Source: Nitrospirota bacterium (lineage in GTDB: Bacteria; Nitrospirota; UBA9217). From it: a stretch of DNA of 11,066 nucleotides. The position numbers were made by a program, and so were the translations under genes. Where the stretch lies: NCBI GenBank assembly GCA_029858565.1, contig JAOUEV010000089.1:1-11066 (forward strand), in the 5' to 3' direction. The notes beneath the pieces are model-generated. The model ran no database searches. It was not told the DNA's origin and saw only the letters and a program-made list of their open reading frames with translations. Each line of letters begins with the position of its first letter. The stretch's first letter is position 1. Below are positions 291-11,007 of the stretch, one piece after another.

Positions 291-397
291 TGGTTGATCC
301 TTTCAAAGCAAGCAGGAAGTAAGCGTGAGAAAATATTATGTCTCCTGTTCCACGTTCCGGGAACATGCCGTTCCCCGCCTCAACGCCTTCACCCCCG

Positions 398-1516
398 CTA
401 CCAATCCTGCTCCTTTGCCAGGGACACGCTGTAATCGTCGTTCACCACGAAATCGATCTCGCGCGGATCCCGCGCATCCCGCGGGTCGAACTTTGCCAGG
501 AAGCCGTCGGCCCCGGGCGACCCGTCGGGCGGGAAGAACGCGTCCAGCAGTTTGATCTGCGGCGTTGTGTCGGCATCGCCGGAAAGCATGATCTGGAGAT
601 AGACGGGATCGTACCTCAGCAGTTTTCGGAACTCGATCGTGTAGAGCGAATACTTGTGGACCTCGGTTACCCGGTTGACCGTCCGATCGTTCATCTCCCC
701 GTCTCGCGATCTCGAGTGGCTCTGGACGTGGCGTACGCGGTTCACCACCCTGCCCTTGATCGTTTTGCCCGGCGCCGCTACGGACATCAGCTCGCTCCGG
801 AAACCCTCCCGCAGTTCCGCGAACTTTTCGTCGTACCCGGTCCTGATGCGGTTCGCCAGGTACCCGCTGACGATCACGACGAGCACCATGACCACGGCAA
901 CTGCGGTCACAACCGCGGGCAGGGAATAGCCTGTCCAGGCTGTGCAGTTCTCCGATATGGCCTGGACGGTCAGGCGCGCAGGCGGGCGCTGCTTCTGGAG
1001 GTGCTCGCCCACCATCTTGAACGTGATCAGGTAGAGCATGCCGAAGGAAAAGGCGGTCACGATGAGCAGGATCGACGTCATTCGGTAGCTCTGCACCTGC
1101 AGGCTCTGATAGGTCCCGGTCAGGTACGGCCGGAAGTAGACCACGGTCTCGAAGGTGTCCTTGAACGAGCTTGCCGCCCGCGGCGGCAGATTCATCGCGA
1201 CGGCTCCATATTCCCTGTGCTGCGGCTCATAGAACATGGCCTGCTGGTCGTTCACCGGATAGCCCAGCATGGCGCCTTCGTGGGTCATGGTCATGGTGAT
1301 TGCGGTGAAAGGCGTCTGCAGCAGGGCCAGGAGCGGGACGAACCCGATCAGGAAGAGAAAGGCCCAGGCGGAGGGCCAGATGAATTCCTTCTGCCTGATC
1401 TGCGAGAACAGGACCTGCTGCACATCGAGTCCGAACAAGCGGGAGAAGACGCGCAGGACCAGATAGGCGGTTGCGACCATCACCAGGAAGACGACCAGCG
1501 CTTGCAGGCATCTCAT
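398..1516 (-). CDS. Hypothetical multi-pass membrane protein (about 4 hydrophobic segments plus a C-terminal soluble domain)
   Basis: 372-aa ORF. AAAGGAG RBS before the ATG at 1516, GC3-biased codons. Hydrophobic stretches LVVFLVMVATAYLVL, AWAFLFLIGFVPLLALL, ILLIVTAFSFGMLYLI, AVVTAVAVVMVLVVIVSGYL. No family recognised. Confidence 0.8.
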   Translation of the reverse strand: MRCLQALVVFLVMVATAYLVLRVFSRLFGLDVQQVLFSQIRQKEFIWPSAWAFLFLIGFVPLLALLQTPFTAITMTMTHEGAMLGYPVNDQQAMFYEPQHREYGAVAMNLPPRAASSFKDTFETVVYFRPYLTGTYQSLQVQSYRMTSILLIVTAFSFGMLYLITFKMVGEHLQKQRPPARLTVQAISENCTAWTGYSLPAVVTAVAVVMVLVVIVSGYLANRIRTGYDEKFAELREGFRSELMSVAAPGKTIKGRVVNRVRHVQSHSRSRDGEMNDRTVNRVTEVHKYSLYTIEFRKLLRYDPVYLQIMLSGDADTTPQIKLLDAFFPPDGSPGADGFLAKFDPRDARDPREIDFVVNDDYSVSLAKEQDW

Positions 1517-1539
1517 GAGCGCTCCTTTCGACAGGCAAG

Positions 1540-1585
1540 ATGCGAATTGTTTGAATGCAGATCAAAAGCCGTGTTCAATTCGCAT
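1540..1585. repeat. Perfect 10-bp inverted repeat upstream of the membrane-protein gene
   Basis: ATGCGAATTG (1540-1549) and CAATTCGCAT (1576-1585), 26-nt spacer containing an inner TTTGA/TCAAA pair. Confidence 0.6.
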
Positions 1586-1681
1586 GAAGCACCTTCTGGG
1601 TTAAAGATTGGCGTCTTTTCCCCAGAGTATATCAGAGCTCAACCGTTCTGGTATGCGCTGGAGGTGCCCTTTATATGACTA

Positions 1682-1695
1682 TCAGGTCTACTTTC
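1682..1695 (+). repeat. Left inverted end motif of the RAYT element
   Basis: TCAGGTCTACTTTC, 3 bp beyond the RAYT stop codon. It lacks the outer GGG seen in the other copies. Confidence 0.8.
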
Positions 1696-1698
1696 CTA

Positions 1699-2556
1699 TC
1701 ATTTCGTTTCTTTCGCGTTCACGATCCTGCTGATGGATGTGAAAAACAGCCCTAAATGTTCAGCAATCTCCCGTTGACGATAACCATGCGTTTCAACAGC
1801 TTCCCTTATCGCCTTGTTGCGTTTTGCCTTGTTCCCGCGAATCTTCTGGCTGAAGAGCCTCTCAAGTGACGGTCTGTCCGCATACCGCTGACTCCTGGGA
1901 ATTTCCGGAATGTCCCGCTGCTCTTTGAGATGGTCTCTGAATCGGTCGGCAAAGCCTTCCTCTCCGAGAAGGGCCTGACCTTTCACCTCTGTCCAGATCG
2001 TTGGCTTTCCTATGCCCCAGCTTACGAACTGGCGATACTCCTCTTCCGCCTTTCCCCGCTTCCCGCTGAACTGGCCCAGCACCCAGTCCGTTGTCAAACA
2101 GGGATGGGGCTTTGCCCGCCCGCCGGTCGCGCTATAACTTGACCATTTCCACACCTCAGGCTGTTCCACCATCCTGGCCCTGACCGGGTTCAGAACCACA
2201 TATCTGCAGACTTCGAGAAAATGGCTGTCCTTCTGGATAAGGATGGCTTTGTACCTGCCTTGGAACAGATGCCCGGTCCTGCCGTGGCGTTTGTTGAAAA
2301 GCTGCGTGTACACGCCGTTCAGCTGCCGCATGCCGAGGGCAAGGTTGCCGTCCGGGGTTTCGATAAGAAGATGGTAATGGTTGGTCATAAGGCAGTAGGC
2401 GTGGCAGATCCAGTTGTATCGCTTGTTGACGTGCTGAAGCGTGTTCAGAAAGTTCTCGCGGTCCTGATCGTCTTCGAAGACCGGTTTCTTTTCATTGCCA
2501 CGCGATGTGACATGATATACAGCGCCGGGGTACTCGATGCGGAGGGGACGGGACAT
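1699..2556 (-). CDS. REP-associated tyrosine transposase (RAYT/TnpA-REP, IS200/IS605-like Y1 HUH family) with C-terminal HTH extension
   Basis: N-terminal MSRPLRIEYPGAVYHVTSRGN, HUH motif in AYCLMTNHYHLL, GHLFQGRYK, catalytic Tyr region RYVVLNPVRA, WKWSSY, and a C-terminal HTH-like GYRQREIAEHLGLFFTSISRIV. Confidence 0.95.
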   Translation of the reverse strand: MSRPLRIEYPGAVYHVTSRGNEKKPVFEDDQDRENFLNTLQHVNKRYNWICHAYCLMTNHYHLLIETPDGNLALGMRQLNGVYTQLFNKRHGRTGHLFQGRYKAILIQKDSHFLEVCRYVVLNPVRARMVEQPEVWKWSSYSATGGRAKPHPCLTTDWVLGQFSGKRGKAEEEYRQFVSWGIGKPTIWTEVKGQALLGEEGFADRFRDHLKEQRDIPEIPRSQRYADRPSLERLFSQKIRGNKAKRNKAIREAVETHGYRQREIAEHLGLFFTSISRIVNAKETK

Positions 2557-2562
2557 GGGGTG

Positions 2563-2591
2563 ACTATAACAGAAAATTGGCAGAACGGCAA
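2563..2591 (-). promoter_or_regulatory. Predicted sigma70 promoter of the RAYT gene (leaderless transcript)
   Basis: Minus strand reads TTGCCG-17 nt-TATAGT with an extended -10 TG, then CACCCC and the ATG. There is no Shine-Dalgarno sequence. Confidence 0.7.
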
Positions 2592-2608
2592 GAAAGTAGA
2601 CCTGACCC
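2592..2608 (+). repeat. Right end motif of the RAYT element, GAAAGTAGACCTGACCC
   Basis: Inverted partner of 1682-1695. Identical copy at 7285-7301; core AGACCTGACCC also at 9913-9923 on the minus strand. Confidence 0.85.
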
Positions 2609-2638
2609 TTTTATGCGCTTATATGCGCTTATATGCGC
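2608..2638 (+). repeat. 10-bp tandem repeat x3 abutting the RAYT end motif
   Basis: CTTTTATGCG CTTATATGCG CTTATATGCG C. The last unit contains the stop codon of the neighbouring gene. Confidence 0.9.
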
Positions 2639-2946
2639 CGTCTCCTCCGCATCTGCCGGTCCAGTTCATCCCGGATACTCAGGATTCTTGTGCGTAATTC
2701 CATGCAGCGCACGGTAAACGCCCGGGTCGGCATGTTCTCGCAAATCTCGCGCCGCTCCAGGTCGTTCAAGATCAGTTGCATTCTCGTCAGCGCCTGCGCG
2801 TTCTGCTGCGCTTCCCTCAAGCCAGAGCGGCCCCCGGCATACAAGGACCCGATGGATTGCGCCAGCAGTTCGACCTGCGATTCAAGATCGCTTATCGTCC
2901 GTATATCGGGCGGCAATTCCCTATTGTGCTGTACGGAGTCCGTCAC
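2629..2946 (-). CDS. Small hypothetical helical protein downstream of cheW (about 105 aa)
   Basis: Track ORF is 2629..2982. A GTG at 2946 preceded by GGAGG is the more likely start and removes the overlap with cheW. Amphipathic helical pattern and Arg-rich C-terminus. Confidence 0.65.
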   Translation of the reverse strand: MTDSVQHNRELPPDIRTISDLESQVELLAQSIGSLYAGGRSGLREAQQNAQALTRMQLILNDLERREICENMPTRAFTVRCMELRTRILSIRDELDRQMRRRRRI

Positions 2947-2965
2947 GCCTGCTCCTCCGAGACGA

Positions 2966-3475
2966 CTATTCCTGTTGATCACCGGGCATTACAGCGGCTG
3001 TCGACAGCTCTGCAGCTGTCAGCTCGGCAGCGGAAAAGACCCGGTCGATTTCCAGAATGATGATAAACCGGTCATCCCGCCTTCCCATGCCTTTGATGAA
3101 TTCGGTCCGGAGTTTCGTTCCGATCTTCGGCGGCGGAGAGATCTGGCCCGGCTCCAGGTCAAGCACTTCCTGCACCGAGTCCGCCAGGCACCCCAGGACC
3201 GTGGTATCGTTGTCTACCGTCACCTCGGTGATGATCACGCAGGTATTTACCGTCTTCTCTGTGGTGGACATCCCGAACTTGAGCCGCAGGTCCACGACCG
3301 GCACCACGCTGCCCCGCAGGTTGATCACCCCGCGCATGAAGTCCGGGGTCCGCGGCACCTTCGTCACCGTGGTGAAGTCCAGCACTTCCCGCACCTTTCC
3401 GATGTCCAGAGCATAGACCTCTTCCGCAAGCTTGAAGGTCAGGTATTGCGTCGTTTGGATGATATCAACAACCAT
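2966..3475 (-). CDS. cheW: Chemotaxis coupling protein CheW
   Basis: QYLTFKLAEEVYALDIGKVREVL, TKVPRTPDFMRGVINLRGSVVPVVDLRLKFG, GCLADSVQEV. Start moved to the ATG at 3475, which follows an AGGAGG RBS. Confidence 0.96.
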   Translation of the reverse strand: MVVDIIQTTQYLTFKLAEEVYALDIGKVREVLDFTTVTKVPRTPDFMRGVINLRGSVVPVVDLRLKFGMSTTEKTVNTCVIITEVTVDNDTTVLGCLADSVQEVLDLEPGQISPPPKIGTKLRTEFIKGMGRRDDRFIIILEIDRVFSAAELTAAELSTAAVMPGDQQE

Positions 3476-3496
3476 AATGGCCTCCTGTGATTGAGT

Positions 3497-3577
3497 CAGA
3501 GACAAGAGACGAGAGGCAAGCGACAAATCTCCAACCTTCCCCGGCGCCTATCCTTTGCCTCTGGTCTCTCGTCGCTG
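3497..3577. repeat. Inverted pair of heptamer tandem arrays forming an intergenic hairpin between mcp and cheW
   Basis: CAGAGAC AAGAGAC GAGAGGC AAGCGAC (3497-3524) and GCCTCTG GTCTCTC GTCGCTG (3557-3577). Arms 3498-3519 and 3555-3576 are complementary at 19 of 22 positions. Confidence 0.75.
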
Positions 3578-3580
3578 CTT

Positions 3581-5269
3581 CTAGAATTTCTCGAACTCCT
3601 TATCCTTCGCATCTTCCTTCAGCGCGGCAGTCCGTCCCATCTCCAGGTGCACGCCCATCGCGGTTTTTTGCGGTCTGGCGGCGGCAAGATGGGCGATCTT
3701 CGGAACATGCTGCACATGCTTCAGCTGCCGCCGTGTCGACTCCGGAAGCGCATGGCCGTTCCCGTTCACCTTGAAAAACGCCACGATAGCCTGGAGCTGG
3801 TCCGCCTGGGACGACAGCTCCTCCGCAGTCGACGACATCTCCTCGGCGGCTCCCGCGTTCTGCTGCACCACCTGGTTCAGCTGCTGGATCGCGTTGTTGA
3901 TCTGGTCAGCGCCGCTCGCCTGTTCCTTGGACGACGCGCTGATCTCCTGCACCAGTTCCGAGGTCTTCTGGATGTCCGGCACCAGCTTGGCAAGCATCTG
4001 GCCGGCCTTGTCCGCAACGTCCACGCTCCTGACCGACAGATCGCTGATCTCGCCCGCGGCAGCCTGGCTCCGCTCGGCCAGCTTTCGCACTTCCGATGCG
4101 ACCACCGCGAATCCTTTGCCGTGCTCGCCCGCCCGGGCGGCCTCGATCGCCGCGTTCAGGGCCAGCAGGTTCGTCTGGCGCGCGATCTCCTCGATAATGG
4201 TGATCTTCTGGGCGATCTGCTTCATCGCCTCCACGGTTTCCGCCACGGCCTTGCCGCTCTCCTGGGCGTCCGCGGCGCTCTTGAGGGCTATCTTCTCGGT
4301 CTGCATGGCATTGTCCGCGTTCTGCCGGATCGTTGCGTTCATTTCCTCGACCGACGAGGAGGCCTCTTCCGTGGACGCCGCCTGCTCGGTCGTGCCCTGG
4401 GACATCTGCTGCGCCCCGGCGGAGAGCTGCTCGCTGCCCGAAGCCACGTTGCTCGCCGCGTTCTTCACGTCCGCAACCACCGCCTTCAGCTTTTCGAGCA
4501 TGTTCTTCATGGCGCCGAGCAGCATGCCGGTTTCATCCCTGCTTCTGACTGCCACGTCAACGGTCAGGTCTCCCGATGCAAGCTTCTCGGAAATCGCTAC
4601 GCCCTCGGCAAGCGGTTTGGTAATGCTCCGGGAAATAACCAGGCTTGAAGCAATGCTGATGATGATCGCCGTGACCGCCAGGACAAGCATGATCCTGACC
4701 GTGCGGGATGTCGTTGCCTCGATCAGCGGCTTCGCCTTGTCCATGGCATCCGAGGCGTCCACGGCCATTTGTTTCGCGCTTGCTTCCACCCGGTGTATTT
4801 CGTCCTTCGCGTCGCTCAGCATCTTGTTTGCGTCAGCCGCGCTTTTCACCTCTCCGCTCCTCAGCATTCCGACGATCCTGTTCATGCTGTTTTCGTACAC
4901 CAGGAGATCGGCAAGCATTGCCTTCATCTTGTCCTTCTCCTCCTGGTGGTCAGCATACTTCTCCATGTCCTTGAGCCGCTCATGAACGCTGTCGTTGTCT
5001 TCTTTCCACTTTTTCAGGTATTCCGATTCTTTCTCGCCATTCCCGATGTTCAGGAACAGGTCCTTTTCATAGCGCCGCATGGCGTTCACGTTCGCCCGCA
5101 TGCGCGATGCATGCTCCTGCATGTGCGCATCGCCCTCGAGAATGAACAACGCTGTTCCGGACACGCTCGACGCTCCCCAATACCCCACGATACTGATGAT
5201 GATCAGCATCAACAGCAGAAAACTGAAACCCACTCCCAGCCTTGCACCGATACGAAGATTGTTCAACAT
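3581..5269 (-). CDS. Methyl-accepting chemotaxis protein (two TM helices, periplasmic four-helix-bundle-type sensor, HAMP, signalling domain)
   Basis: Hairpin tip [53 protein letters not shown]...GDLT...DETGML, C-terminal pentapeptide EFEKF. Start moved to the ATG at 5269 after an AAGGAGG RBS. Confidence 0.96.
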
Positions 5270-5423
5270 GCTATTTCCCTCCTTCAACTGAATTCTCACG
5301 TCTTTGTTATTCACCGTCCGCGCGGCCCCTCGGCGCCAGGGGACCAAGAAGCGGCCCCGCACAACCAATGAATGATTCTTGAACCTGGTTACGGCAGTAG
5401 CAGTCAATAATACAGATTAATAT

Positions 5424-5440
5424 TGCACATACCGTGCCGA
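5424..5440 (-). promoter_or_regulatory. Sigma54 (-24/-12) promoter for mcp-cheW
   Basis: Minus strand TCGGCACGGTATGTGCA gives GG-N10-GC and matches the TGGCACG-N4-TTGC consensus closely. It lies in an intergenic region next to a sigma54 activator gene. Confidence 0.75.
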
Positions 5441-5499
5441 AGGGAATGAAAAGAATAACCTGTTGAAAGACAAGCGGATTCCAGGAGCGGGAAGGAGAA

Positions 5500-5551
5500 C
5501 ATTATCAGACGCAGGTGATAAAATTATCGCCGTGATAATGTAATGATAAAA
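5500..5551. promoter_or_regulatory. Candidate upstream activator/operator sites (TGATAA repeats and palindromes)
   Basis: CATTATCA (5500-5507) and TGATAATG (5533-5540) form an inverted pair. GGTGATAA-AA-TTATCGCC palindrome at 5514-5531. TGATAAAA at 5516 and 5544. Confidence 0.5.
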
Positions 5552-5592
5552 AATGCCTGCTTCTTCAGACGGGAAGGGATAGAAGGAAACGG

Positions 5593-6912
5593 TCAGTTGG
5601 TCGAAATATTCATTTTCTTTATTCTCCGGTAGAGGGTCGCCTGGGACATTCCCAGGACCTTTGCCGCCTCTACAACATTGCCGTTGCACTGCCGGAGCGC
5701 GTTCCGGATGGATTCGTATTCGTTCTGATCAGTGATCCGGCCGCTTTCCGGAACCGGCTTTGCGCTGCTCCAGAGGCCGGTGAAATGGCTTGTCCCGATC
5801 TCCCCGCCGCGCGACAGAAGCACGGCCCGCTCGATCAGATACTTGAGCTCCCGGATATTGCCCGGCCATGGATAGGACACGAGAAACTGCATGACCTCCG
5901 GCCCAAGATCGCGGTAGGAGTAATTGCACTGGACAAGAAAATGCCTGACCAGCGGGGGAATATCCTCGGGCCGGTCCCGCAGCGCCGGGATGCGCACCGG
6001 CAGAACCTGCAGCCGGAACAGCAGGTCCTTGCGGAACCTGCCGGCCCGCACTTCCTGTTCCAGGTCGCGGTTGGTCGCGCAGATCAGCCGGAAGTTGCTC
6101 ATCCGCACTCTCGTCTCCCCCAGCCTCCGGTAGGTCTTGTCCTCGATCACCTTCAGGAACTGCGCCTGGATGGACAGGTCCATATCGCCGATTTCGTCAA
6201 GAAACAACGTGCCCCCGTCGGCAGCTTCCAGCAATCCGGGCTGGTCCTTGATCGCCGTGGTGAAGGACCCTTTTGCGTGGCCGTACAGTTCGCTCCGGAG
6301 CAGCTCGCCCCGGAAACTCGGGCAGCTCACCTCCACAAGCGCCTCGTTGCGGCGGCTTCCGCTTTCGTGAATCCATTGCGCAAGAACGCCTTTTCCGACA
6401 CCGGTCTCGCCCGTGATGAGCACCGGAACGTCGTTCTCCGCCGCAATCCGGGAGATTTCCAGAACCTGCTCCATGGCTTTTGATACCCCGAACGTAAATG
6501 TTCCTCGTTCCTTCAGCAGGTCGCTGGTCCTTGCGCGGCGTCTGAGCGCCTCCATTTCAAGGCTTTTTTCAAGAAAAACCGATAATTCCCTGAGCTTGAC
6601 CGGCTTGATCAGGAAGTTGTCGGCCCCTTTCTGCATGGCTTCCACCGCCAGGGGGATGTCCCCCTCGCCCGTGACCACCACGATCGCCGCTGTCGGATTC
6701 GAGAGGCGCACATCGCCGATCAATTCTACGCCCTTGCCGTCAGGAAGATGCTGGTCGATGATCGCCGCGCGATATTCCCTGCTGGCCAGCTGCTCCCGGG
6801 CAGCGCCGACAGACATCGCGGTGGCGACGGCATACCCCTGCTCCTCCAGGAACTTCTCGAGAAGGCGCAGCATCGCTTGATCATCATCAACAACAAGAAC
6901 GTTCTTCTTCAT
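5593..6912 (-). CDS. NtrC/AtoC-family sigma54-dependent response regulator (REC-AAA+-Fis HTH)
   Basis: REC motifs VLVVDDD, IIDQHLPD, IKP. Walker A GETGVGK, loop 1 ELYGHAKGSFTTA, Walker B LFLDEIGD, FRKDLLFRL, WPGNIREL, HTH AAKVLGMSQATLYRRIKK. Confidence 0.96.
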   Translation of the reverse strand: MKKNVLVVDDDQAMLRLLEKFLEEQGYAVATAMSVGAAREQLASREYRAAIIDQHLPDGKGVELIGDVRLSNPTAAIVVVTGEGDIPLAVEAMQKGADNFLIKPVKLRELSVFLEKSLEMEALRRRARTSDLLKERGTFTFGVSKAMEQVLEISRIAAENDVPVLITGETGVGKGVLAQWIHESGSRRNEALVEVSCPSFRGELLRSELYGHAKGSFTTAIKDQPGLLEAADGGTLFLDEIGDMDLSIQAQFLKVIEDKTYRRLGETRVRMSNFRLICATNRDLEQEVRAGRFRKDLLFRLQVLPVRIPALRDRPEDIPPLVRHFLVQCNYSYRDLGPEVMQFLVSYPWPGNIRELKYLIERAVLLSRGGEIGTSHFTGLWSSAKPVPESGRITDQNEYESIRNALRQCNGNVVEAAKVLGMSQATLYRRIKKMNISTN

Positions 6913-7044
6913 ATCGGAACTGCCTCAACTGGGGATACACATCTGGACCGAAGAGCGAAATCCCTTGATCCTCGACAGGCGAATTATATCACGAAAACAC
7001 GCAAAAAGATTCTCTGCGGCAAGACAGGCTGACCCTATGGCCTC

Positions 7045-7301
7045 TCCGGGGTTTTGATAAGAAGATGGCAATGGTTGGTCATAAGGCAGTAGGCGTGGCA
7101 GATCCAGTTGTATCGTTTGTTGACGCGCTGAAGCCTGTTCAGAAAGTTCTCGCGGCCTGATCGTCTTTGAAGACCGGCTTCTTTTCATTGCCACGCGACG
7201 CGACATGATATACAGCGCCGGGGTACTCGATGCGGAGGGGAGGGGACAGGGGGTGACTATAACAGAAAATTGGCAGAATGGCAAGAAAGTAGACCTGACC
7301 C
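7045..7301 (-). pseudogene. Truncated, degenerate copy of the RAYT 5' end, promoter and end motif
   Basis: Aligns to 2351-2608 with 12 substitutions and one 1-bp deletion by manual count (about 95% identity). Start ATG changed to CTG, frameshift near 7156, HYH changed to HCH, and only about the first 68 codons are present. Confidence 0.93.
7256..7284 (-). promoter_or_regulatory. Retained RAYT sigma70 promoter facing the response regulator gene
   Basis: Minus strand TTGCCA-17 nt-TATAGT with extended -10 TG. Confidence 0.6.
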
Positions 7302-7330
7302 TGGCATGCTGCTGGCATGCTGGCATGCTG
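7301..7330 (+). repeat. 8/11-bp tandem repeat abutting the second RAYT end motif
   Basis: CTGGCATGCTG CTGGCATG CTGGCATGCTG, starting at the last C of AGACCTGACCC. Confidence 0.9.
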
Positions 7331-7343
7331 TACGCCCGCCCCG

Positions 7344-9236
7344 TCATTCCCGCTTCCCCGGCTCCTCCACGAAGTATGCCGAATCCCAGCCTGCGTCCAC
7401 GTGCTCGGGATGGTCCCGCAGCTCGGCAAGGAGCAACTGCTCGAGGTCCTCGATCTTCCGGCGCGCCTCGGTGATGTAGCCGCCGGCGTCATGGCGCAGG
7501 TGGCGGAGCTCCCGGACCGCATGTTCATCGTGCTGCCGGAAGGTCATGGCAGCCCGGTGCGCCTGGTGGGCGCGGAACCCGAGCGCGCGCAGCGTGTCGA
7601 CGCCGGCGCGGAGCGAGGTGTCGAGCGTTTCGCGGTACACGTGCTGCACGCCCGCGTCGAGCAGCTCGTAGGCCTGGGTCCGGTCCGTTGCCCGGGCAAA
7701 GAGGACCAGGTGGGGAAAGTGCTTCTTCGCCGTATGGACCATGTGGAGCACCTTCTCCGGTTCATCGACCGCGAGGACGAACACCTTCGCCTCCTCTGCG
7801 CCGGCGGCATGCAGCAGGTCGCTGCGCGATGCGTCGCCGTAGAAGACCTTGAGCCCCAGCTTGCGAAGGAGTTCGGCCTTGTCGGAGTCGAGCTCCAGCA
7901 CGGTCACGCCGATGCCGTTTGCCCGCAGCAGCCTGCCGATGATGCTGCCGAACCCGCCGAATCCCGCGATGATGACGGGGTTCTTCACATCGATGGCGTC
8001 GGCGGCGCGCTCCGCCCCGGCGCGGGCGCCGAACCGGGGCAGGACCAGCTTCTCGTTCAGCAGCAGCACGAGCGGCGTCAGGGCCATGGACAGGGCCACG
8101 GCGCCGACAAGGGGATCGGCGACCGCGGACGTCATGACCCGGTTCTGGACCGCGAAGGAGAAGAGCACAAAGGCGAACTCGCCGCCCTGGGCCAGGGACG
8201 CGGCAAAGAGCACGTTCTGGTCCGCGCCCATCCGGAAGGCCCTGCCAAGGGCCAGGATCACGAGGAACTTGACCAGGACCAGCCCGGCGACGAGCAGGGC
8301 GATCAGCATTGGCCGCGACGCGACGAGCTGGAAATCGATGGCCGCGCCCACGGCGATGAAGAACAGGCCGAGCAGCAGGCCCTTGAACGGCTCGATGTCG
8401 CTTTCGAGCTCGTGCCGGTACTCGCTGTTCGCCAGGACCACGCCGGCCAGGAACGTGCCGAGCGCGGGGCTCAGCCCGATCTTGGTCATGAGCAGGGCGA
8501 TCCCGATCACGAGCAGCAGGGCGGCGGCGGTGAAGATCTCCCGCAGCCGGGTCCGCGCGATGGCCCGGAACAGGGGCCGGACCAGGAAGAGGCCGGCGAT
8601 CACGATGGCGGTGATCACGGCCAGGACCACGAGGGTGTGGGCCCATTCGGGCAGGGTCTCGACCCAGGCGGCGGACGCGGATGCGTGGCCGGCCTGGCCC
8701 CCGGCGCCCGGGTCATTCCCGGCAAGGAGCGGCATGATCGCGAGCATGGGAATGACCGCGATGTCCTGGAACAGGAGCACCGAGAAGGTGCTCTGGCCCG
8801 CGTCGGTCCGCATCAGGCCTTTTTCGTTCAGGGTCTGGAGCACGATGGCCGTGGAGGAGAGCGAGAGGATCATGCCTGCCGCGAGCGCGGTGGGGAACGG
8901 CAGTCCCAGGGCCATGCCAACGAGGCCGATCGCGAGCGTCGTCGCAACGACCTGGAGCCCGCCCATCCCCAGGATGGGACCCCGCAGCCGCCAGAGCATC
9001 TGGGGCTGGAGCTCAAGGCCGATCAGGAAGAGCATCATGATCACGCCGAACTCGGCGAAATGCATCACGTCCTGGCCTTCCTCGCCGATCAGGCCGAGGC
9101 CGTAGGGCCCGATGATCGCTCCCGCGATCAGATAGCCGAGCACCGATCCCAGCCCGAGGCGCTTGGCAATGGGGACCGAGATCACGGCCGCGGCAAGGTA
9201 GACGAGCGCCTGAAAGAAAAAGTCTTCTCCGTGCAT
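7344..9236 (-). CDS. kefC: KefB/KefC-type potassium efflux protein (CPA2 antiporter with KTN domain)
   Basis: VPIAKRLGLGSVLGYLIAG, LSLSSTAIV, VLLFQDIA, YRHELESDIEPFKGLLLGLFF, KTN VIIAGFGGFG and VFYGDA. Start moved to the ATG at 9236 (GGAAAGGGA RBS, just after the upstream stop). KefB versus KefC cannot be resolved by eye. Confidence 0.93.
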   Translation of the reverse strand: MHGEDFFFQALVYLAAAVISVPIAKRLGLGSVLGYLIAGAIIGPYGLGLIGEEGQDVMHFAEFGVIMMLFLIGLELQPQMLWRLRGPILGMGGLQVVATTLAIGLVGMALGLPFPTALAAGMILSLSSTAIVLQTLNEKGLMRTDAGQSTFSVLLFQDIAVIPMLAIMPLLAGNDPGAGGQAGHASASAAWVETLPEWAHTLVVLAVITAIVIAGLFLVRPLFRAIARTRLREIFTAAALLLVIGIALLMTKIGLSPALGTFLAGVVLANSEYRHELESDIEPFKGLLLGLFFIAVGAAIDFQLVASRPMLIALLVAGLVLVKFLVILALGRAFRMGADQNVLFAASLAQGGEFAFVLFSFAVQNRVMTSAVADPLVGAVALSMALTPLVLLLNEKLVLPRFGARAGAERAADAIDVKNPVIIAGFGGFGSIIGRLLRANGIGVTVLELDSDKAELLRKLGLKVFYGDASRSDLLHAAGAEEAKVFVLAVDEPEKVLHMVHTAKKHFPHLVLFARATDRTQAYELLDAGVQHVYRETLDTSLRAGVDTLRALGFRAHQAHRAAMTFRQHDEHAVRELRHLRHDAGGYITEARRKIEDLEQLLLAELRDHPEHVDAGWDSAYFVEEPGKRE

Positions 9237-9250
9237 GGTTCCCTTTCCGG

Positions 9251-9871
9251 TTACTTCCTGATCACCGCGTCGAGGTCCGTGTTCAGCCGCGGGAACGACC
9301 GGGCAGCCTCCCAGTCGATCCGGTTGTCCCGGACCGCCTCGATCACCCGCCGGTAGTCGTCGGCATGGCGGCCGATCTCGGGCCCGGTCAGCTCGTTCGT
9401 GCCGTGGATCACAAAGGGCGGCAGGTATTCCATCCCGCAGATGCGCGCAAGCTGCTCCACCGGCTCGAGGTACTCCCTGATGGTGCACCGGTTGAAGCCT
9501 TCCCTGCAGAAGAGCGACTCCCGGCCGCCCGTGGACAGGGCGCTCATCAGCTTCTTTCCCCGCAGCGCGACCCCTTCCTTGCCGTAGGCCCATTTGTGCT
9601 CCAGCACGAGCTCTTCCCACATCTTGAGCAGCGCGGGGACGCTGAACCAGTAGAGAGGGTACTGGAACACGATGATGTCGTGTTGGTCCAGGAGGTCCTG
9701 CTCGCGCCGGACGTCGATGTGAAAGTCCGGATAGGCCTCGTACAGGTCGTGGAAGGTGACGCCCTCCAGGTCCCGGACGGCATGCATCAGCTGCCGGTTC
9801 ACCCGCGACTTCTGGAGCGCGGGATGGGCGAAGAGGATCAGGACAGAATGTGCGAAGGGTCGTTCGTTCAT
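9251..9871 (-). CDS. kefG: KefG/KefF-type flavodoxin-fold NAD(P)H oxidoreductase, Kef ancillary protein
   Basis: LILFAHP...SRVN, HDLYEAYPDFHIDVRREQ, IVFQYPLYWFSVPALLKMW, LRGKK, STGG. Directly upstream of the Kef transporter, as in kefGB/kefFC operons. Confidence 0.9.
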   Translation of the reverse strand: MNERPFAHSVLILFAHPALQKSRVNRQLMHAVRDLEGVTFHDLYEAYPDFHIDVRREQDLLDQHDIIVFQYPLYWFSVPALLKMWEELVLEHKWAYGKEGVALRGKKLMSALSTGGRESLFCREGFNRCTIREYLEPVEQLARICGMEYLPPFVIHGTNELTGPEIGRHADDYRRVIEAVRDNRIDWEAARSFPRLNTDLDAVIRK

Positions 9872-10011: not shown

Positions 10012-11007
10012 TCAGCTTCCCTCGGAAACGGTCAGATCCACCACCACGTCCCTGATGTCCTGGGCCTGGGTGCGGATATCCTTGTCCACTGATTCCCCGG
10101 GGTTCAGGCGGACCGTGAGCCCTTCCATGGTGGAGTCATCCACCCAGCCGCCGCCCTGGTTCATCTTCCATTTGACCGAGTACTTGCACCGGGCCGTTGC
10201 TGTTGTGCTGTTGTTGGTGAAGCGCACGATGATGTACTTTCCCTCGACCTTGTAGGAGGCTGAGACAAGAGCGGACGATCCGTTCTTGACCGGGTTCCAT
10301 CCCTTTTGCGCGGGAGCGGGCTTTGCTGCAGCGCTCTTTTCCTTTTTTGCTGCTGCCGGCCGCGCTTTTTCCACGGCCTTTTCTTCCGCTGTTGCGCTGC
10401 TGTCCCCTGCGGCCTTGCTTGTTCCTTTCTCTGCTGCTGCAGCCGGCTTTTTCACAGGCGCTTTTTTCTTGTCCTTTTTCTTGTCCTTTTTCTTATCCTT
10501 TTTCTTGTCAGCAGATACCTGCGGAGCAGTTGCCACGGTGATCCCTGCTGCGCTGCTCGCGCCCGGGGCGCCGTTGCAGAGGTATTCCGTGAACAGGACC
10601 TCGGCAGGTTCAAGCAGGTTGTTCCTGTTCCCGTCAGCACCGGACAGGACCTTCAGGCCGCCTGCAGGGCAGTGCGCTGTGCCTGAGGGTTCGGACGCGA
10701 TCATGACCAGCGAGAGCAGATCCCCGGGCTTTCCCTCTTCAGCGACCGGAACGCAGACCGGCTCGCCCTTCTGCACCTCGGCAGCGTCCAGAATGCCGTT
10801 GTTGTTCCCGTCGCTTCCCGAATAGATGCCGATCCCCCCGCCGGGACAGAGCTGGCTGCCTGCCGGCAGGAGCGTTGTGGTGGCTGCTGATGACGGGCCC
10901 AGTGTTGAGAGATCAGGCCCTTCAGCCCCTTTCTTGCACCCCGCGCTCGGAACGACCGTGACCAACAGAACCGCGATCAAAAGCCCGGACCCTTTTCTCA
11001 TTGCCAT
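10012..11007 (-). CDS. Putative lipoprotein with two Cys-bounded repeats, a Lys/Ala-rich linker and a C-terminal beta-rich domain
   Basis: AAGGGGGG RBS. Signal peptide ending SAG-C24 (lipobox-like). Repeats CPGGG...GSDGNNNGILDAAEV...C and CPAGG...GADGNRNNLLEPAEV...CNG. Confidence 0.85.
   Translation of the reverse strand: MAMRKGSGLLIAVLLVTVVPSAGCKKGAEGPDLSTLGPSSAATTTLLPAGSQLCPGGGIGIYSGSDGNNNGILDAAEVQKGEPVCVPVAEEGKPGDLLSLVMIASEPSGTAHCPAGGLKVLSGADGNRNNLLEPAEVLFTEYLCNGAPGASSAAGITVATAPQVSADKKKDKKKDKKKDKKKAPVKKPAAAAEKGTSKAAGDSSATAEEKAVEKARPAAAKKEKSAAAKPAPAQKGWNPVKNGSSALVSASYKVEGKYIIVRFTNNSTTATARCKYSVKWKMNQGGGWVDDSTMEGLTVRLNPGESVDKDIRTQAQDIRDVVVDLTVSEGS
10462..10509 (-). repeat. 12-bp coding tandem repeat x4 encoding (DKKK)4
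   Basis: Plus-strand units TTTTTTCTTGTC, CTTTTTCTTGTC, CTTTTTCTTATC, CTTTTTCTTGTC. Confidence 0.9.

What the first reader, a model, noticed from the sequence alone, without database searches (positions are those of the whole stretch)
2592..7330. RAYT end motif is followed twice by register-locked tandem amplifications of unrelated local DNA
Seen: both copies of GAAAGTAGACCTGACCC are immediately followed by a three-unit tandem array, and the two arrays share no unit sequence. One is CTT[T/A]TATGCG x3 (2608-2637) and the other CTGGCATGCTG/CTGGCATG/CTGGCATGCTG (7301-7330). Both can be read as starting at the last C of the motif. In the second the units share a 5' boundary but differ in length (11, 8, 11). 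In the first the outermost unit is the end of the neighbouring gene, so the amplified DNA is host flank. Known: RAYTs are HUH enzymes that nick and rejoin ssDNA near REPs, and Y1 transposases do not make classical target-site duplications. Inference: repeated nicking at the motif end with strand transfer or re-priming 8-11 nt away would iteratively duplicate the flank. That would be a motif-anchored repeat-writing or diversifying activity, and I do not know of it as a characterised system.
Basis: partly seen in the sequence, partly recalled or inferred. Interest (0 to 1): 0.85.

Follow-up and report, generated by a model that had tools for sequence, protein, structure and literature searches.

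The report
Transposon tips that write tandem repeats
The motif is the tip of the inverted repeat of a little-studied tyrosine-transposase element (TIRYT), and in many bacteria these tips are followed far more often than chance by short tandem copies of the next 7-11 bases, which looks like a footprint of the enzyme nicking, priming and resealing DNA.

Summary
GAAAGTAGACCTGACCC is the outer tip of the terminal inverted repeat (TIR) of a TIRYT/TIRtron element, a RAYT-like Y1 HUH transposase gene flanked by TIRs rather than REP hairpins. Copy 1 (1679-2608) is intact. Copy 2 (7045-7301) is a 5' remnant. Both arrays start exactly at the last C of the tip.

With my own detector, arrays anchored at that C occur at:
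- 4 of 45 tips in this genome;
- 17 of 130 tips in 78 loci from other genomes;
- 0.18-0.22% of control sites (odds ratio 68).

A second class repeats the last ~6 tip bases plus flank: 18 of 130 tips against 0.75% of controls. A 33%-identical clade with a different tip shows the same (11 of 39).

Units are 7-11 nt with a fixed 5' edge and a variable 3' edge. Several arrays parse as repeated copying of the prefix. One orthologous locus carries 2 versus 6 tip copies.

Best reading (inferred, not shown): the enzyme nicks at the tip, a polymerase extends briefly, and the strand is rejoined. This is the model already proposed for BIME amplification by E. coli TnpA-REP. The family and the model are known. 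I found this footprint in none of the papers I searched.

The parts
1660..1678 (+). 19-nt 'cap' joined to the 3'-side TIR in place of the usual CCC tip. It contains the stop codon of ORF 338-1678.
   Evidence: The same 19-20 nt follow ...CCTGAT at TIRs of three different subfamilies (C72, C90, C138). The sequence beyond it is unique in each. Unexplained.
1679..1703 (-). 3'-side terminal inverted repeat arm. The core 1682-1695 is the exact complement of 2592-2605. The tip reads ...CCTGATAG instead of ...CCTGACCC, and no array follows it.
   Evidence: (inverted pair I5).
1699..2556 (-). Intact TIRYT gene, 285 aa: an N-terminal Y1 HUH domain and a C-terminal part with only weak helix-turn-helix signals.
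   Evidence: Pfam Y1_Tnp E 1.4e-13. NCBIfam REP_Tyr_transpos 91.9 bits against a cut-off of 80. H60, Y61, H62 and Y119 are invariant in 13 relatives. HTH_37 E 0.023, below its cut-off.
2584..2608 (+). 5'-side TIR arm. The tip ...GACCTGACCC ends at 2608, 52 nt upstream of the start codon.
2608..2637 (+). Array 1: three 10-nt units starting at the last C of the TIR tip. The TIR-proximal unit has one mismatch. The outermost unit holds the last two codons and the stop of ORF 2629-2982.
   Evidence: type I, period 10, offset 0.
2629..2982 (-). Host gene (117 aa) downstream of cheW. Its 3' end is the original flank.
   Evidence: Syntenic weak homologs in G001 (E 1.5e-9) and G003 (E 7e-4). No Pfam or NCBIfam family.
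7045..7249 (-). Remnant of a second TIRYT copy: only the first ~69 codons, with the start codon changed and a 1-nt deletion.
   Evidence: 95% identical to 2351-2616. The ATG is replaced.
7277..7301 (+). TIR arm of the remnant, with the same tip.
7301..7330 (+). Array 2: units of 11, 8 and 11 nt starting at the last C of the tip. It parses exactly as two successive copies of the prefix, first 8 nt and then 11 nt.
   Evidence: peel [11, 8].
7344..9620 (-). Host Na+/H+ exchanger-TrkA_N gene. Its stop lies 13 nt beyond array 2.
   Evidence: Relatives hold only 30-32% identical proteins.

Best explanation
The motif is the outer tip of the terminal inverted repeat of a TIRYT/TIRtron element. This is a RAYT-like single-tyrosine HUH enzyme with a C-terminal DNA-binding tail.

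Proposed mechanism, one round:
1. The enzyme, bound at the TIR, nicks the outward-reading strand just before the last C of the terminal C-run (...GACC|C...). It stays covalently attached to the 5' end of the flank.
2. A host polymerase extends the free 3'-OH for about 7-11 nt and displaces the protein-linked strand.
3. The new 3' end attacks the phosphotyrosine.
4. After the next replication one extra copy of the first 7-11 flank bases sits next to the tip.

Repetition gives arrays with a fixed 5' edge, variable unit length and the newest unit nearest the TIR. A second nick position about 6 nt further in (before TGACCC, or before CGTCCCC in the other clade) gives units made of tip plus flank. 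This builds clusters of TIR tips.

What is shown: the anchoring, the enrichment, the prefix-copy structure, and copy-number change at paralogous and orthologous ends. What is inferred: the nick, its exact position, the polymerase step and the rejoining.
For: Family:
- Y1_Tnp and REP_Tyr_transpos hits, with invariant HUH and Tyr.
- TIRs and no hairpin.
- The tip fits the published TIRYT motif GGGGWSAS (PMC3733652 passages; PMC6006769 passages).

Enrichment:
- This genome: 4 type I and 3 type II among 45 C-terminated tips. Controls: 29 and 172 of 16028 G[AT]CCC+ sites, and 37 and 187 of 20000 random positions.
- Other genomes: 17 type I and 18 type II among 130 defined tips (24 further ends undefined). 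Matched CC-anchors in the distal flanks of the same loci: 18 and 61 of 8118. Odds ratios 68 and 21.
- 31 of 78 loci carry an array.
- Second clade (33% identity, tip AACGTCCCC): 2 type I and 9 type II among 39 tips.

Anchoring: the left-boundary histogram over 175 tips has sharp peaks at the last C and at -5 to -7.

Iteration with variable length: exact prefix-copy parses are C72b [11,8], L016 [10,9], L027 [11,9] and L042 [10,10,11]. C138 parses as 9, 10, 7 by hand.

In-situ change:
- One MAG has the same 9-10 nt tip segment once at 5' ends and 2-4 times at three 3' ends.
- The orthologous locus L067/L068 versus L072 has 2 versus 6 tip copies before the same distal flank.

No target-site duplications at full-length copies.

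Precedent: TnpA-REP cleaves and rejoins ssDNA near REPs, and the same nick-prime-rejoin scheme was proposed for BIME amplification (PMC3333891 section 25; PMC8266576 passages).
Against: No cleavage, covalent intermediate or unit-number polymorphism was observed. Only contigs, not raw reads, were available.

No orthologous empty site was found for either window array.

The inferred cut (C|C, with G, T, A or C as the joining 3' base) differs from E. coli TnpA-REP. That enzyme cuts C|T and needs an attacking 3' C. Array 2 and the C138 array do not parse under a C|T rule.

Some arrays (L062, and array 1 because of one mismatch) do not parse as exact prefix copies.

Most tips carry no array by my criteria: 93 of 130 and 38 of 45.

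Arrays also stand at gene remnants and solo tips, which requires action in trans or old events.

TIRYT enzymes have never been assayed. Their C-terminal domain gave only sub-threshold HTH hits here.
Confidence: 0.6

Rival explanations
1. Replication slippage or template switching at forks stalled by protein bound to the TIR, with no enzymatic nick and rejoining. The bound complex would set where the nascent strand slips.
For: The enrichment itself needs only something specific at the tip. Some arrays are uniform (L047 10,10,10; L060 8,8). Some do not parse as exact prefix copies (L062).
Against: The left edge is exact to the base in most anchored arrays. Unit lengths vary within one array while the 5' edge is kept. 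First duplications arise without a pre-existing repeat. G[AT]CCC+ sites elsewhere are at background.
Confidence: 0.18
2. The arrays form once, as a by-product of aberrant strand transfer or repair at the moment of insertion. They are not built by repeated activity after insertion.
For: Paralogous copies with different unit numbers could each have acquired their array on insertion. No population polymorphism could be seen.
Against: L067/L068 and L072 share the same distal flank and differ in tip-copy number, 2 versus 6. Nested parses need several successive events. Arrays stand at decayed remnants such as window copy 2.
Confidence: 0.12
3. The element prefers to insert beside pre-existing tandem repeats.
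For: No empty site could be examined for the window arrays. The left flank of copy 1 carries a loosely similar 10-11 nt stretch.
Against: Units include the TIR's own last C, and in type II its last ~6 bases, which cannot pre-exist. In arrays of 3-5 units the element always sits at the array edge. The element's own shared tip segment is what is amplified in one MAG.
Confidence: 0.05
4. Assembly artefact at repeat boundaries of metagenome bins.
For: Many copies lie at contig ends. The genome has 144 contigs.
Against: A second assembler reproduces both window arrays. Arrays occur in 31 of 78 loci from many assemblies, including contigs of 0.4-1.7 Mb. Long-period tip duplications are also seen by eye in Undibacterium isolate genomes (L058, L063), though my detector did not count them. 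Assemblers tend to collapse repeats rather than expand them (general knowledge).
Confidence: 0.02

Closest known systems
TIRYT / TIRtron (Di Nocera et al. 2013, PMC3733652); subclass 2.1 of TnpA-Y1 (Quentin et al. 2018, PMC6006769)
   Same: A RAYT-like Y1 HUH protein of about 280-330 aa with a C-terminal extension. It is flanked by terminal inverted repeats, not REP hairpins. The tip fits GGGGWSAS (GGGGTCAG in relatives, 7 of 8 positions in the window). TIR copies sometimes occur in dimers or clusters.
   Different: In the passages I read, neither paper mentions base-exact, tip-anchored micro-duplications of the flank. Within those texts, 'direct repeat' and 'target site' each occur 0 times in PMC3733652 and 'tandem' occurs 0 times in PMC6006769. 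Their figures and supplements were not visible to me.
E. coli TnpA-REP / REP-BIME system and its amplification model (Ton-Hoang et al. 2012, PMC3333891; Corneloup et al. 2021, PMC8266576)
   Same: A Y1 enzyme that cleaves and rejoins ssDNA next to its recognition element, at several nearby sites. The proposed model is: nick, the 3'-OH primes a host polymerase, a second cleavage or rejoining follows, and one unit is added. [quoted passage not shown]
   Different: Recognition there needs a GTAG-tagged hairpin, the cut is C|T, and the unit is a whole REP or BIME (tens of bases). Here there is no hairpin, the inferred cut is before the last C of a C-run, the units are 7-11 nt of flank, and the gene is multi-copy and IS-like.
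IS200/IS605 (IS608, ISDra2) peel-and-paste transposition
   Same: A Y1 HUH catalytic domain. There is no target-site duplication. The cut sites lie a few bases from the recognised end.
   Different: Those elements have subterminal hairpins, asymmetric ends, one active strand and precise excision and insertion. No TIRs and no flank arrays are described in the passages read.
Rolling-circle HUH elements (IS91, ISCR, Helitrons)
   Same: Nick-primed synthesis with a covalently held 5' end. Flanking DNA is captured when termination is imprecise (mentioned in PMC3333891 section 25).
   Different: Those are Y2 or Rep-helicase enzymes that read through over kilobases. Here the patch is 7-11 nt and stays in place.

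Membership tests
TIRYT / TIRtron (TnpA-Y1 subclass 2.1) | Y1 HUH domain with the HUH motif and a catalytic tyrosine, RAYT-like rather than IS200-like | tested here: met
   Pfam Y1_Tnp E 1.4e-13. NCBIfam REP_Tyr_transpos 91.9 bits against a cut-off of 80. H60, Y61, H62 and Y119 invariant in 13 sequences.
TIRYT / TIRtron (TnpA-Y1 subclass 2.1) | Gene flanked by terminal inverted repeats instead of REP hairpins | tested here: met
   14-nt perfect core and 22-nt imperfect inverted arms at 1682-1703 and 2584-2605. TIRs at both ends in most of the 80 related loci. The region does not fold (z -0.48).
TIRYT / TIRtron (TnpA-Y1 subclass 2.1) | TIR tip motif GGGGWSAS | tested here: met
   Relatives end in GGGGTCAG, the reverse complement of ...CTGACCCC. 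The window tip has three Cs, matching 7 of 8 positions. The motif is taken from PMC3733652 and PMC6006769 passages.
TIRYT / TIRtron (TnpA-Y1 subclass 2.1) | C-terminal Bac_DnaA_C, HTH_23 or HTH_28-like domain | tested here: inconclusive
   Only sub-threshold HTH_37, HTH_3 and HTH_31 hits (E 0.023-0.12) in residues 101-140 of the C-terminal 143 aa. No structure was predicted.
RAYT sensu stricto (REP-associated, domesticated) | Flanked by GTAG-tagged palindromic REPs or REPINs that are highly repeated in the genome | tested here: not met
   No hairpin. The exact tip occurs 3 times and related tips about 50 times in 3.9 Mb. The GTAG in the window tip is not conserved in paralogs.
RAYT sensu stricto (REP-associated, domesticated) | Usually a single copy per genome (PMC5581495 passages) | tested here: not met
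   At least 12 paralogous genes or fragments on 14 contigs, several at contig ends.
IS200/IS605 | Subterminal imperfect hairpins at asymmetric left and right ends, with no TIRs | tested here: not met
   Symmetric TIRs and no stable fold.
BIME-type amplification by a Y1 enzyme (mechanism, not a family) | Enzyme-made nick whose 3'-OH primes synthesis, followed by rejoining to the Tyr-linked 5' end | not testable with these tools
   Only footprints are available: base-exact anchor, variable unit length and prefix-copy parses. Biochemistry or raw reads are needed.

The most novel reading that the evidence does not exclude
TIRYT enzymes are site-anchored repeat writers. Each nick at a TIR tip can add one 7-11 nt copy of whatever lies next to it. 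When the nick falls 6 nt further in, it adds a new tip, so the arrays are a running record of enzyme activity. The same reaction would then be the long-sought way in which REP, BIME and TIR clusters are born and grow, and it could be borrowed as a small protein tool that writes tandem copies at a chosen DNA address.
Probability: 0.3. Interest if true: 0.85.

Novelty: new variant of a known kind. Interest (0 to 1): 0.7.

Why it matters
TIRYT enzymes are widespread, but I found no biochemical assay of them in the papers I read. How RAYT-type enzymes amplify REP, BIME or TIR clusters in cells was still open in the papers I read (2012-2021).

The base-exact footprints found here do four things:
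1. They predict the cleavage position of an unstudied HUH clade: before the last C of the tip, with a second site about 6 nt in.
2. They provide natural in vivo support for the nick-prime-rejoin amplification model.
3. They show a local mutational process that remodels the DNA next to host genes. In this window that DNA lies within 13-21 nt of two gene ends.
4. They offer a simple assay, array growth next to a TIR tip, which makes the question directly testable.

Tried and rejected
Empty-site tests
- A DNA search of 41 relatives with the right flank of copy 1 hit only the multi-copy cheW part.
- Protein searches of 13 genomes found only 30-32% identical exchangers for site 2.
- The same search for site 1 found weak syntenic homologs of the 117-aa gene with different 3' ends.
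- No nucleotide-level empty site exists among the genomes searched, so target preference could not be tested directly.

Reads
- Only two runs were offered, both as contigs.
- They confirm the arrays but cannot show unit-number variants.
- Record 8 has only 28 nt to the left of array 2, under the 31 advised for bridging.
- X2 holds a relative's version of the gene (13 differences), not these sites.

Structure-by-sequence
- phmmer with the protein found 0 PDB chains. A 13-sequence profile also found 0.
- I made no fold prediction.

C|T rule
- I tried to parse the arrays with the E. coli rule (cut C|T, attacking 3' C).
- Array 1 fits. Array 2 and the C138 array do not, so I rejected it for this family.

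'After each GACC'
- In the main clade both boundaries follow a GACC (AA-GACC-T-GACC-C).
- The second clade (…AACAACGTCCCC) has no such repeat, so I rejected this as a general rule.

TA or longer target-site duplications: none at C51, C123, C44 or C88.

My first motif scan was too permissive, with 1349 hits, and I replaced it with blastn-short seeds. The C105 array (tip at about 1507) was seen only and is not in the counts.

I ran no negative control with ends of unrelated IS families.

Supplements of the papers are closed. Figure 9 and Additional files 4-5 of PMC3733652 may show TIR flanks that I could not see.


Full report
WHAT IS THERE

The 17-mer stands exactly at 2592-2608 and 7285-7301. 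An inverted, imperfect copy lies at 1679-1695. Between 1679 and 2608 lies one ORF, 1699-2556 on the minus strand, of 285 aa.
- It carries a Y1 HUH domain (Pfam Y1_Tnp, E 1.4e-13).
- It passes NCBI's REP-associated tyrosine transposase model (91.9 bits, cut-off 80).
- H60, Y61, H62 and Y119 are invariant in an alignment with 12 relatives.

The 17-mer is the outer end of a terminal inverted repeat. It has a 14-nt perfect core and about 22 nt in all, and it lies 52 nt upstream of the start codon. The region does not fold into a hairpin (z -0.48).

The second copy is only a remnant. Positions 7045-7303 are 95% identical to 2351-2609, the start codon is changed and one base is deleted.

The two copies stop being alike right after ...GACCCT.

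THE ARRAYS

TRF reports 2608-2638 (period 10, 3.1 copies) and 7301-7330 (periods 11 and 8). In both, the period match breaks one base to the left of the last C of the tip (read; detector offset 0). Array 2 parses exactly as two successive copies of its own prefix, 8 nt and then 11 nt.

The outermost unit of array 1 holds the last two codons and the stop of ORF 2629-2982. That ORF has weak but syntenic homologs after cheW in two same-genus genomes, so the unit is host DNA.

A second assembler (Logan contigs of run X1, probably the source sample) gives both regions without a difference.

IS IT MORE THAN CHANCE, AND IS IT GENERAL?

The genome (3.92 Mb, 144 contigs) holds at least a dozen paralogous genes or fragments. 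Their ends share ...GACCTGACCC or, in a second subfamily...AACAACGTCCC, at both ends in inverted orientation.

I seeded blastn-short with 24 tips and found 56 candidate tips. Fifty had 16 or more identities, and 45 of those end in C.

My detector looks for near-exact tandem tracts of period 6-30 with at least two copies. It recognises two classes:
- Type I: the tract can start at the last C of the terminal C-run.
- Type II: the tract starts inside the TIR and runs into the flank.

| Set of sites | n | Type I | Type II |
|---|---|---|---|
| This genome, C-terminated tips | 45 | 4 | 3 |
| This genome, all G[AT]CCC+ sites (control) | 16028 | 29 | 172 |
| This genome, random positions (control) | 20000 | 37 | 187 |
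| Other genomes, defined tips (80 loci, 50-88% identity; 24 further ends undefined) | 130 | 17 | 18 |
| Same loci, CC-anchors in distal flanks (control) | 8118 | 18 | 61 |
| Second clade (33% identity, tip AACGTCCCC; 14 further ends undefined) | 39 | 2 | 9 |

Further points:
- Among the 130 tips in other genomes, 3 had a repeat a little further out and 93 had none.
- Against the matched control the odds ratios are 68 (Fisher p 3e-22) and 21 (p 1e-16). Relatedness of loci makes these p-values too small. However, the units are different sequences at nearly every end.
- 31 of 78 loci carry an array.
- Both the 5' and the 3' ends of the gene are affected.
- The loci are mostly Nitrospirota, with some Desulfobacterota-type, beta-, gamma- and zetaproteobacterial bins and Undibacterium isolates.

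THE SHAPE OF THE ARRAYS

The histogram of possible left boundaries over 175 tips has two sharp peaks. One is at the last C. The other is at -5 to -7, which is the T of TGACCC.

Type I units are 7-11 nt. Within one array the units share the 5' edge and differ in length. Several arrays parse as iterated exact copying of the prefix:
- C72b [11,8];
- L016 [10,9], L027 [11,9] and L042 [10,10,11];
- the C138 array as 9, 10, 7, by hand.

The type II array of L059 parses the same way from the T (15, then 13; by hand).

Not all arrays do. L062 does not parse as exact prefix copies, and array 1 has one mismatch.

No target-site duplications flank the full-length copies.

DO THE ARRAYS CHANGE AFTER INSERTION?

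In one MAG (L022, L024, L027, L033, L042) the 9-10 nt after CCC are the same at both ends of the copies. They stand once at the 5' ends and 2-4 times at three 3' ends. There, the amplified DNA is the element's own tip.

L067 and L068 share their distal flank with L072. They carry 2 tip copies, and L072 carries 6.

WHAT IT IS CALLED

This is the TIRYT/TIRtron class of Di Nocera et al. 2013: RAYT-like genes flanked by TIRs that share GGGGWSAS (passages). Quentin et al. 2018 place it in subclass 2.1, with a C-terminal HTH or DnaA-like domain and no REPs (passages).

The reverse complement of ...CTGACCCC is GGGGTCAG. The window tip has three Cs and so matches 7 of 8 positions.

The C-terminal domain gave only sub-threshold HTH hits here.

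It is not a RAYT in the strict sense. There are no REPs, and the gene is multi-copy (compare PMC5581495 passages).

HOW IT MOST LIKELY WORKS

E. coli TnpA-REP cleaves ssDNA near REPs, forms a 5' phosphotyrosine and rejoins strands (passages). Ton-Hoang et al. proposed (section 25, read whole) that:
1. a nick gives a 3'-OH;
2. host polymerases extend that 3'-OH;
3. a further cleavage on the new strand, followed by attack on the first Tyr-5'P, adds one BIME unit.

The footprints here are what this scheme predicts if the unit is just the first 7-11 nt after the nick. The predictions are a base-exact 5' anchor, a loose 3' edge, the newest unit next to the tip, and no need for a prior repeat.

The inferred cut is before the last C (C|C), not C|T. 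A C|T rule with an obligatory 3' C fits array 1, but not array 2 or the C138 array.

The second anchor, about 6 nt further in, would give the tip-plus-flank units and hence clusters of TIR tips. Di Nocera et al. noted such clusters for TIRs. They also noted that REP clusters are reiterated with flanking DNA of variable length.

All enzymatic steps are inferred.

NOVELTY

The family and the model are in print. I did not find the tip-anchored micro-duplication signature in any of the following:
- the two papers that use the words TIRYT or TIRtron (search; passages);
- the listings;
- the passages read from PMC3333891, PMC8266576 and PMC5581495.

Figures and supplements were not visible to me.

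VERDICT

I class it as a new variant of a known kind, with interest 0.7.

Noticed in passing
window 1660-1681; G000 C90 about 2138-2166; G000 C138 about 18580-18607: At three TIRs of different subfamilies the tip is cut short at ...CCTGA. It is followed by T, two variable bases and the same 19 nt, which read on the other strand look like a ribosome-binding site plus ATG. The sequence beyond is unique at each place. In the window it supplies the stop codon of ORF 338-1678. The top strand there also loosely resembles the unit of array 1.
   Followed up: partly
L010, L013, L014, L017, L018, L021, L022, L027, L033, L039, L042 and others; G000 C66, C55, C95, C138: Many Nitrospirota copies have a similar 9-10 nt after the CCC tip, of the form TA-W-R-GGTTC, at independent sites and sometimes at both ends. 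It could be an extended TIR, a preferred target, or a former array unit carried along.
   Followed up: partly
G000 C105 about 1507-1575 and 2738-2846: Two tips of the AACGTCCC type face outward only 69 and 109 bp apart with no gene between them, like miniature (MITE- or REPIN-like) derivatives. The tip at about 1507 is followed by a 10-nt unit repeated 2.2 times.
   Followed up: no
G000 C40 about 45140-45350: A solo tip shows nested duplications (16 nt twice, inside 37 nt twice). Two further tips stand in direct orientation 69 nt apart, next to a 5'-UTR remnant of the C88-type copy with the same flank as C88.
   Followed up: no
G000 C66 about 2703 against C138 about 49: Two copies of one subfamily differ by a 10-nt insertion or deletion inside the tip, bounded by a 6-nt direct repeat. 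C66 and C55 carry a 4-nt insertion (TATA) within the tip.
   Followed up: no
window 10463-10509: A 12-nt unit repeated 3.9 times (TRF score 87) lies inside ORF 10012-11007 (-), which has a DUF7151 domain. It is an in-frame coding repeat.
   Followed up: no
window 338-1678 (+) and 398-1516 (-): A 446-aa ORF without any Pfam or NCBIfam family overlaps a 372-aa ORF on the other strand. Which one is the gene is open. No homolog was seen in the two syntenic loci examined.
   Followed up: partly
L072; L077, L084, L073: Some proteobacterial loci have 4-6 reiterated tips with differing lengths of TIR and 5'-UTR included. These are small TIR clusters that resemble BIME arrays.
   Followed up: partly
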